Assembly: GCA_964016885.1 (NCBI GenBank)
Contig: OZ024746.1
Span: forward strand, 61,628,001 to 61,692,000
Reading direction: 5' to 3'
DNA from: Eledone cirrhosa
Taxonomy: Eukaryota
DNA length: 64,000 nucleotides
Position 1 is the first letter of the stretch; the number at the start of each line of letters is the position of its first letter. Position numbers and translations under genes: made by a program. The notes beneath the pieces were generated by a model, which was given only the letters and a program-made list of their open reading frames with translations, was not told the origin of the DNA and ran no database searches. Positions 2,126 through 2,176 of the stretch are shown here, one piece after another.

Positions 2126-2176
2126 AGTTTAAGCAAAGAATCGCTGCTTTCACCCTTAACGGGATCTTCTGAAACT
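2126..2176 (-). ncRNA. Hammerhead-ribozyme-like fold with variant core, copy 1 of a dispersed repeat
   Basis: Minus strand reads AGTTT-CAGAAGA-tCCCgttaaGGGt-GAAA-GCA-gcgattctt-TGC-TT-AAACT. Stems I, II and III all pair; the core has A in place of U4. Confidence 0.45.

What the first reader, a model, noticed from the sequence alone, without database searches (positions are those of the whole stretch)
2126..2176. Multi-copy repeat that folds as a hammerhead ribozyme with a non-canonical CAGAAGA core
Seen: on the minus strand all three helices of a type I hammerhead form in the right order. Stem I is AGTTT/AAACT, stem II is CCC/GGG, stem III is AGCA/TGCT with a 9-nt loop, and the triplet would be CUU. 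A second full copy at 22659-22709 differs only in the two loops. A third copy at 47491-47555 has lost core and stem II. All three abut (TA)n on the same side. Known: Penelope-like elements and retrozymes carry type I hammerheads with a CUGANGA core, usually with a palindromic stem III that needs dimerisation. Inference: a family with U4-to-A, a U-U pair in place of the stem II closing pair and a monomeric stem III could be an undescribed variant ribozyme or retrozyme-like element that targets microsatellites. Both loop changes are CpG transitions, so they are weak evidence of selection.
Basis: partly seen in the sequence, partly recalled or inferred. Interest (0 to 1): 0.75.

Follow-up and report, generated by a model that had tools for sequence, protein, structure and literature searches.

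The report
Penelope retrotransposon hammerhead with A4 core
These repeats are cut-off tail ends of a very abundant protein-coding jumping gene (a Hydra-type Penelope element) whose hammerhead-shaped RNA carries A instead of the usual U at core position 4 throughout its lineage, and because the helices and the rest of the core stayed fixed while the loops drifted, it is likely still needed and is predicted to cut itself slowly, which is untested.

Summary
The three copies are real. They are truncated 3' ends of an autonomous Hydra-clade Penelope-like element (713-aa RT/GIY-YIG ORF, 734-nt intron, (TA)n targets), not a retrozyme. CAGAAGA is the family state: 25,087 exact matches against 1,023 with another letter at position 4; all 17 fetched 'CTGAAGA' hits are fold-back junctions. 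Full copies add a 9-bp distal helix I that window copy 1 lacks. Old subfamilies keep A4 (27 of 27 picked by flank only); helices plus core differ at 1 of 55 sites, loops at 7 of 21, and N7 is free. There is almost no covariation. The U/U opposition, NUU triplet and (TA)n targeting are normal for Hydra elements; A4, G15.2-C16.2 and the 9-nt loop III are not (0 CAGANGA in 77 metagenome Hydra loci and 26 published rows). U4C is known from a viroid; U4A was not found in my searches. Cleavage is untested and in-vitro data predict low activity. Best reading: attenuated but selected ribozyme (0.5); rival: non-cutting protein handle (0.35). The scan found this family before in other pieces of this genome. 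New variant of a known kind; interest 0.45.

The parts
2126..2176 (-). Type I hammerhead-shaped motif: helix Ia 2172-2176/2126-2130, core CAGAAGA 2165-2171 (A4 at 2170), U9a 2164, helix II 2161-2163/2153-2155, U11a+GAA 2149-2152, helix III 2145-2148/2132-2135, U17 2131
2103..2180 (-). Copy 1: 78-nt stub of the 3' end of a Hydra-clade Penelope-like element, 5'-truncated inside the helix I bulge, ending at the element's inner 3' end (+28 from the predicted cut) on (TA)n
   Evidence: 98.7% identical to the element in L052; end classes
2117..2125 (-). 3' strand of the distal helix Ib (TTAATTTGT here, TTAATCTGT in most copies); its partner strand is missing in this copy
22638..22715 (-). Copy 2: second stub with the whole CAGAAGA motif (A4 at 22703); followed on the + strand by a decayed piece of the element's 3' tail at about 22723-22749 (seen by eye)
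   Evidence: 93.6% identity
47487..47535 (-). Copy 3, inverted arm: helix III to the inner 3' end
   Evidence: 100% identity over 49 nt
47532..47568 (+). Copy 3, direct arm: last 37 nt of the element (outer 3' end, +115) followed by (TA)n
   Evidence: 97.3% identity

Best explanation
The motif is the hammerhead-shaped RNA in the 3' UTR/pseudo-LTR of an autonomous Hydra-clade Penelope-like retrotransposon whose lineage has A fixed at core position 4, and it likely still works as a slowed self-cleaving ribozyme that would cut tandem read-through transcripts into unit-length or circular templates for the element's own reverse transcriptase. Shown: element identity, position of the motif 156 nt before the element's end, A4 in young and old subfamilies, conservation of helices and core against drifting loops and a free N7. 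Inferred: that conservation reflects selection on active master copies; that the cut occurs after CUU; that it is slow and may need the distal helix, loop I-loop II contact or a protein. The window copies are truncated, likely inert stubs.
For: Element: 713-aa ORF with RWR, DKT, YRDD, CxCX5C linker, CxxC and CxH, the Hydra diagnostics; motif sense to the ORF, also as upstream pLTR and inverted truncated copies. A4: 25,087 vs 1,023; 17 of 17 fetched CTGAAGA hits are fold-back junctions; 91 of 98 old-subfamily matches with positions 4-9a left free; 27 of 27 copies that reach the motif among 30 picked by an upstream flank only. Selection: old majority vs young copy, helices+core 1 of 55 sites differ (G.U to A-U, pair kept), loops 7 of 21, flanks 11 of 56; Fisher p 3.5e-4 and 0.004; ORF fourfold sites differ at 27 of 56. 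N7, the free core position, is A14/T11, the pattern of a catalytic core. The last base of loop II stays A and the bulge stays U-rich, as in the loop contact described in the abstract of PMC2632901. A viroid U4C variant is much slower in vitro yet sufficient in vivo (PMC3088659). The sister family (about 52% aa) keeps a covariant U3-A8 core, so hammerheads in this clade stay under selection.
Against: No cleavage data. In pairwise mutagenesis of a hammerhead all single and double CUGA mutants other than the C3-G8 swap had low activity (PMC9901934 section 7). The motif also departs at 15.2 (G; C in 33 of 34 metagenome motifs). The fold is 2.8 kcal/mol above the MFE, probability 2e-4 (tertiary contacts not modelled). 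Almost no covariation: 3 both-side changes in 548 ungapped pair cells. Core conservation alone is weak: P(0 of 12 changed) is 0.07 at the flank rate, 0.008 at the loop rate; retention of the single A4 site proves nothing by itself. Middle pair of helix II is broken in 9 of 27 old copies. 5' junctions of 183 copies do not pile up at the cut (biased sample, no canonical control). Naiad elements amplify without hammerheads (PMC8557442).
Confidence: 0.5

Rival explanations
1. The ribozyme no longer cuts; the fold is kept as a binding or priming handle for the element's RT-endonuclease. The inner 3' end, used by inverted arms, lies 14 nt behind helix Ib.
For: U4 changes give low activity in vitro; second departure at 15.2; 3' ends fall at +28 (66) and +115 (92) of 183 copies; helices conserved without covariation, as sequence-specific protein contact would give; no junction pile-up at the cut; spliced copies run through an intact motif in 9 of 10 fetched.
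Against: All other catalytic positions including U17 are unchanged while N7 is free; a handle need not keep them. Two 3' ends and inverted arms are general for Penelope-like elements, including those without hammerheads (figure legend of PMC8557442).
Confidence: 0.35
2. Neutral relic: a dead hammerhead carried along by a successful element, with no function.
For: Hammerheads are dispensable in Naiads; flanks near the motif are also fairly conserved (11 of 56); no covariation.
Against: 1 of 55 structured sites changed vs 7 of 21 loop sites within the same 76 nt, p 3.5e-4, in copies not chosen on the motif.
Confidence: 0.08
3. A4 is kept because TTTCAG is a splice acceptor of the pLTR intron (in Drosophila virilis the intron ends at helix I).
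For: TTTTTCTCAG/TTTCAG looks like an acceptor; precedent in PMC4209133.
Against: The element's intron ends 97 nt upstream of helix Ia: 266 genomic copies carry that exact spliced junction, whereas joining of the two tested donors to AG sites in the motif gave 7 matches, 0 of them spliced. Other donors were not tested.
Confidence: 0.04
4. A non-autonomous retrozyme-like element that targets microsatellites.
For: Short copies in (TA)n in the window.
Against: The copies are 94-100% identical to the 3' end of a protein-coding element; 5' ends are scattered truncations.
Confidence: 0.02

Closest known systems
Hydra-clade Penelope-like elements and their hammerheads (Craig et al. 2021, PMC8557442; Hydra-1_Obim, Hydra-1_Ajap, Penelope-n_HM)
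   Same: C-terminal GIY-YIG ORF with RWK-like, DKT, CxCX5C, CxxC and CxH motifs; (TA)n insertion; sense hammerhead near the 3' end; U9a/U11a; NUU triplet; pLTR and inverted truncated copies.
   Different: Core CAGANGA instead of CUGANGA (26 of 26 published rows are ctgaNga); G15.2-C16.2; 9-nt loop III instead of 1-3 nt; about 1.08-kb 3' UTR with a 734-nt intron; a different family from Hydra-1_Obim (its motif reads ctgaagag; three motifs of this element absent from the supplement).
Minimal and variant hammerheads of metazoan Penelope-like elements (Cervera and de la Pena 2014, PMC4209133)
   Same: Type I topology in pLTRs, extra base between 9 and 10.1, predicted low activity; U3-A8 covariant core as in the sister family here.
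   Different: Helix III is 4-6 bp with a non-palindromic loop; U4A is not among the variants in the parts read (parts 1-2 of 4; figures not seen).
Natural core variants (Perreault et al. 2011, PMC3088659), including the viroid U4C
   Same: Position 4 changed; U10.1-U11.1 opposition; short helix II; reduced activity expected.
   Different: A rather than C; fixed in a lineage of more than 25,000 copies; U4A not named in the sections and passages read.
Non-LTR retrozymes (bioRxiv 10.64898/2026.07.22.740005, part 1 of 5 read)
   Same: Type I hammerhead, Penelope link.
   Different: This element encodes its own RT-endonuclease and is not a tandem non-coding unit.

Membership tests
Hydra-clade Penelope-like element | Single ORF with RT and C-terminal GIY-YIG-type endonuclease | tested here: met
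   713-aa ORF with YRDD and a C-terminal ..IGLT..E..N domain; Pfam gave no significant hit, so assignment rests on motifs and on likeness to the published Hydra consensi seen
Hydra-clade Penelope-like element | RWK-like motif, DKT, CxCX5C linker, CxxC and CxH around conserved E and N | tested here: met
   RWR 41, DKT 119, CNCRNRADC 568, CDLC 666, CKH 694; definition
Hydra-clade Penelope-like element | Insertion into (TA)n; pLTRs; inverted 5'-truncated copies | tested here: met
Hydra-clade Penelope-like element | Placement inside the published Hydra clade on an RT tree with the reference families | not tested
   The tree, 104 holds only own-genome and metagenome loci, no named references
Hydra-clade Penelope-like element | Canonical hammerhead in the pLTR | tested here: not met
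   Motif present at the expected place but with A4; this is the variant feature
Type I hammerhead ribozyme | Three helices in type I order around the core | tested here: met
   not the MFE fold
Type I hammerhead ribozyme | Core C3 U4 G5 A6 N7 G8 A9, G12 A13 A14, A15.1-U16.1, H17 | tested here: not met
   All met except U4, which is A
Type I hammerhead ribozyme | Covariation in helices | tested here: inconclusive
   3 both-side changes in 548 cells; one subfamily-level G.U/A-U change
Type I hammerhead ribozyme | Match to an Rfam hammerhead model | tested here: not met
   none at E<=10 for 2102-2215; only the truncated window copy was scanned on its own
Type I hammerhead ribozyme | Site-specific self-cleavage | not testable with these tools
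   needs an in-vitro assay; no run on record as RNA was listed
Non-LTR retrozyme | Non-coding tandem unit without own protein | tested here: not met
   motif is part of a coding element

The most novel reading that the evidence does not exclude
A natural hammerhead that cleaves efficiently with A at the supposedly invariant U4, rescued by the co-occurring G15.2-C16.2 pair, the extended helix I or the element's own protein, and kept through the whole history of a lineage of more than 25,000 copies; descriptors that demand CUGANGA would have missed this class in Penelope-like elements.
Probability: 0.15. Interest if true: 0.72.

Novelty: new variant of a known kind. Interest (0 to 1): 0.45.

Why it matters
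What hammerheads do for endonuclease-bearing Penelope-like elements is stated as unclear in PMC8557442. This lineage is a natural experiment: a highly successful family with a core change predicted to cripple cutting, yet with the fold held by selection. One cleavage assay with an A4-to-U control and one transposition assay would tell a slow ribozyme from a non-catalytic protein handle. If it cuts well, the accepted core consensus and all CUGANGA-based surveys need widening. The element class itself is known.

Tried and rejected
Rfam over the whole window: 570 matches, the 150 shown were microsatellite-driven miRNA models, 420 not seen. The repeat finder was swamped by (TA)n. 'CTGAAGA' copies as an ancestral canonical subfamily: rejected, 17 of 17 fetched are fold-back junctions; only 20 of 1,023 were fetched. 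Other families with a CAGANGA core and different helices: pattern gave 10,128 matches vs 1,987 control; the two families that dominate the first 100 listed were fetched (20 regions) and rejected, one has a canonical CTGACGA hammerhead on the opposite strand and neither forms helix I in the CAGA reading; rarer families could hide in the 10,028 unlisted. Splice-acceptor reading of A4: rejected for two donors. RNA evidence: no RNA holder listed; four runs of unrecorded kind, all contigs, showed no other letter at A4 at 3% or more and no joint into the core CAG among those shown (17 joints not shown); their depth cannot rank positions and is not used. Junction pile-up at the cut: none in 183 copies, sample biased to motif-bearing copies, no control family. 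The first selection test used copies chosen on the motif and was replaced by the flank-chosen set (3 of 30 dropped because they did not reach 60% identity over the motif). Literature: searches 'hammerhead ribozyme + U4A + catalytic core' (2 unrelated papers), 'hammerhead + CAGANGA' (0), CAGAUGA/CAGAAGA/CAGANGA (42 papers, 20 listed, none on a natural variant by title), 'U4C' (1). Supplements of PMC3088659 gave no CAGANGA string, but the control CUGAUGA hit only a primer table, so its alignments and figures were not seen. Lunse 2017, Nelson and Uhlenbeck 2008, Ambros and Flores 1998 and Scott 2013 were not held; a U4A variant could be described there or in figures I could not see.

Full report
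Observation. On the minus strand 2126-2176 reads AGTTT CAGAAGA T CCC GTTAA GGG T GAA AGCA GCGATTCTT TGCT T AAACT, a type I hammerhead layout with A at position 4 and a CUU triplet. The second copy differs at one base in each of loops II and III; the third is partial. A relaxed descriptor found only these two complete motifs in the window. ViennaRNA does not give the hammerhead as best fold and Rfam has no hammerhead match at 2102-2215.

Copy number and state of position 4. The genome (3.0 Gb) holds 25,087 exact matches of the core pattern with A4 and 0 of the reversed control; 1,023 have another letter. Of 20 of these fetched, 17 read as CTGAAGA, and all 17 are fold-back junctions where an inverted copy starts inside the core; the other 3 are C4 or G4 point changes.

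What carries the motif. Flanks of other copies continue into a shared element. Full copies encode a 713-aa protein with RWR, DKT, YRDD, a CxCX5C linker, CxxC and CxH, the diagnostics of the Hydra clade of Penelope-like elements, which insert in (TA)n (PMC8557442 section 11). Pfam does not recognise it; 1,214 database relatives were found among 7,999 candidates scored, the best 120 at 38-56% identity. The motif is sense to the ORF, about 915 nt behind the stop and 156 nt before the end, and recurs upstream of the ORF as a pseudo-LTR and in inverted truncated arms. Of 183 copies examined, 92 end at +115 and 66 at +28 from the predicted cut. Window copies 1 and 2 are 78-nt stubs with the inner end; copy 3 is an inverted arm joined to the last 37 nt of the element. 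The 3' UTR holds a 734-nt GT-AG intron: 266 genomic copies carry the exact spliced junction, and 9 of 10 fetched continue through an intact motif. The host is probably an octopus (my inference from its repeats; earlier scan notes say the same).

Full anatomy. Full copies extend helix I by 9 bp (ACAGATTGA/TTAATCTGT) across a 7-nt U-rich bulge. Window copy 1 is truncated inside that bulge.

What is ordinary, what is not. In the published table of Hydra hammerheads (supplement file S2 of PMC8557442) 26 of 26 rows have ctgaNga, 14 have the U9a/U11a opposition, 10 an NUU triplet, and all have C15.2 and a loop III of 1-3 nt. In 77 metagenome loci encoding relatives a descriptor with free position 4 gave 64 CTGANGA, 3 TTGANAA, 1 CCGANGA, 4 implausible cores and 0 CAGANGA; 23 loci gave nothing. 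A stricter pass gave 34 distinct motifs in 31 loci: U4 in 33, U/U in 21, C15.2 in 33. In the fetched loci of this genome many other families have canonical cores, and the nearest family (about 52% aa; one clade with the A4 lineage and one further locus, support 0.915) has a U3-A8 core with U4 kept. Unusual are thus only A4, G15.2-C16.2 and the longer loop III.

Selection. Older subfamilies exist, with ORF copies 69-95% identical to the young family in a ladder-like tree; the oldest ORF-linked motifs (L248, L251, L261) all have A4. With positions 4-9a left free, 91 of 98 old-subfamily matches have A4 (my count). To avoid choosing on the motif I picked 30 of 124 loci by an upstream flank; 27 reach the motif. 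A4 is in 27 of 27, N7 is A14/T11, and the majority differs from the young copy at 1 of 55 helix and core sites (G.U to A-U), 7 of 21 loop sites and 11 of 56 flank sites; Fisher p 3.5e-4 and 0.004. Fourfold sites of the ORF differ at 27 of 56 between the old clade majority and one young copy. Against this: covariation is nearly absent (3 of 548 cells), individual copies decay in helices (8.7%) and core (5.4%) as dead insertions do, the middle pair of helix II is broken in 9 of 27, and the core alone gives P 0.07 to 0.008.

Mechanism. Shown: identity, position, A4 fixation, conservation pattern. Inferred: function. Cervera and de la Pena propose that such motifs cut precursor RNA, perhaps into circles, and report low activity in vitro for metazoan ones (PMC4209133, parts 1-2 of 4 read). 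Mutagenesis gives low activity for all CUGA mutants except the C3-G8 swap (PMC9901934 section 7; the U4A value itself not seen), yet a viroid U4C variant that is much slower in vitro supports infection (PMC3088659 passage; the primary paper was not held). Because every other catalytic position is held while N7 and the loops move, I take a slowed but selected ribozyme as most likely (0.5). A non-cutting handle for the element's protein is close behind (0.35): the inner 3' end follows helix Ib, helices are conserved letter for letter, 5' junctions do not gather at the cut, and Naiads thrive without hammerheads. A neutral relic (0.08) is disfavoured by the loop contrast. A splice-acceptor role for A4 (0.04) is disfavoured because the intron ends 97 nt upstream and 0 of 7 pattern matches show splicing into the motif. 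No RNA run was available.

Comparison and novelty. It is a Hydra-clade element by protein motifs and structure; its motif works like, but fails the core test of, a canonical hammerhead. U4A was not found in ten paper searches, with the gaps listed under Tried and rejected. Papers seen: PMC8557442 abstract, passages, section 11, supplement parts 1, 2, 52 and one search; PMC4209133 parts 1-2; PMC3088659 abstract, sections 8-9, passages, supplement searches; PMC9901934 passages and section 7; PMC2632901 abstract; PMC6765202 and PMC11014351 passages; bioRxiv 10.64898/2026.07.22.740005 part 1 of 5. Hammerhead numbering is from recall. Earlier notes of this scan report the same family in other pieces of this genome and U4C families elsewhere; they are unchecked and are not counted as support. 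Verdict: new variant of a known kind, interest 0.45.

Noticed in passing
L052:5354-6087 (G000:C4); spliced copies L315-L324: The element's 3' UTR/pLTR holds a 734-nt GT-AG intron; 266 genomic copies have it precisely removed, with both alleles of the first exon base, and several occur as inverted pairs in which both arms are spliced.
   Followed up: partly
L131-L150 (3' ends), ORF piece L051:7184-8203: Sister Hydra family (about 52% aa) with a U3-A8 covariant core (TTGATAA), a long loop II, a 6-bp helix III and a GUC triplet; 22 motifs in 20 loci.
   Followed up: partly
L031-L049: Fold-back junction hot spot inside the core at TTC-A-GAA; most of the 1,023 non-A4 pattern matches appear to be such junctions, which mimic a canonical CTGAAGA core.
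   Followed up: partly
L228-L242, tandem units at L236:2996-3856: Abundant repeat with a canonical CTGACGA hammerhead, in 430-nt tandem units and inverted pairs; looks retrozyme-like.
   Followed up: no
L165:2203: A CCGAAGA (U4C) hammerhead-shaped motif in a metagenome contig next to a Hydra-type ORF.
   Followed up: no
window 144-1217 (-): 358-aa open frame of a reverse transcriptase (RVT_1, E 9.5e-27), a non-LTR retrotransposon fragment unrelated to the finding.
   Followed up: partly
window 2181-2215: Short fragment of another very common repeat (ATCAT..TTTAACGTC..CCATGCTAGCATGGGTT) abuts the truncated 5' end of copy 1.
   Followed up: no
window 18149-20562, 27467-29988, 46900-49800: Microsatellite arrays of (TA)n/(TATG)n over 2 kb long; they cause the Rfam miRNA matches.
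   Followed up: no
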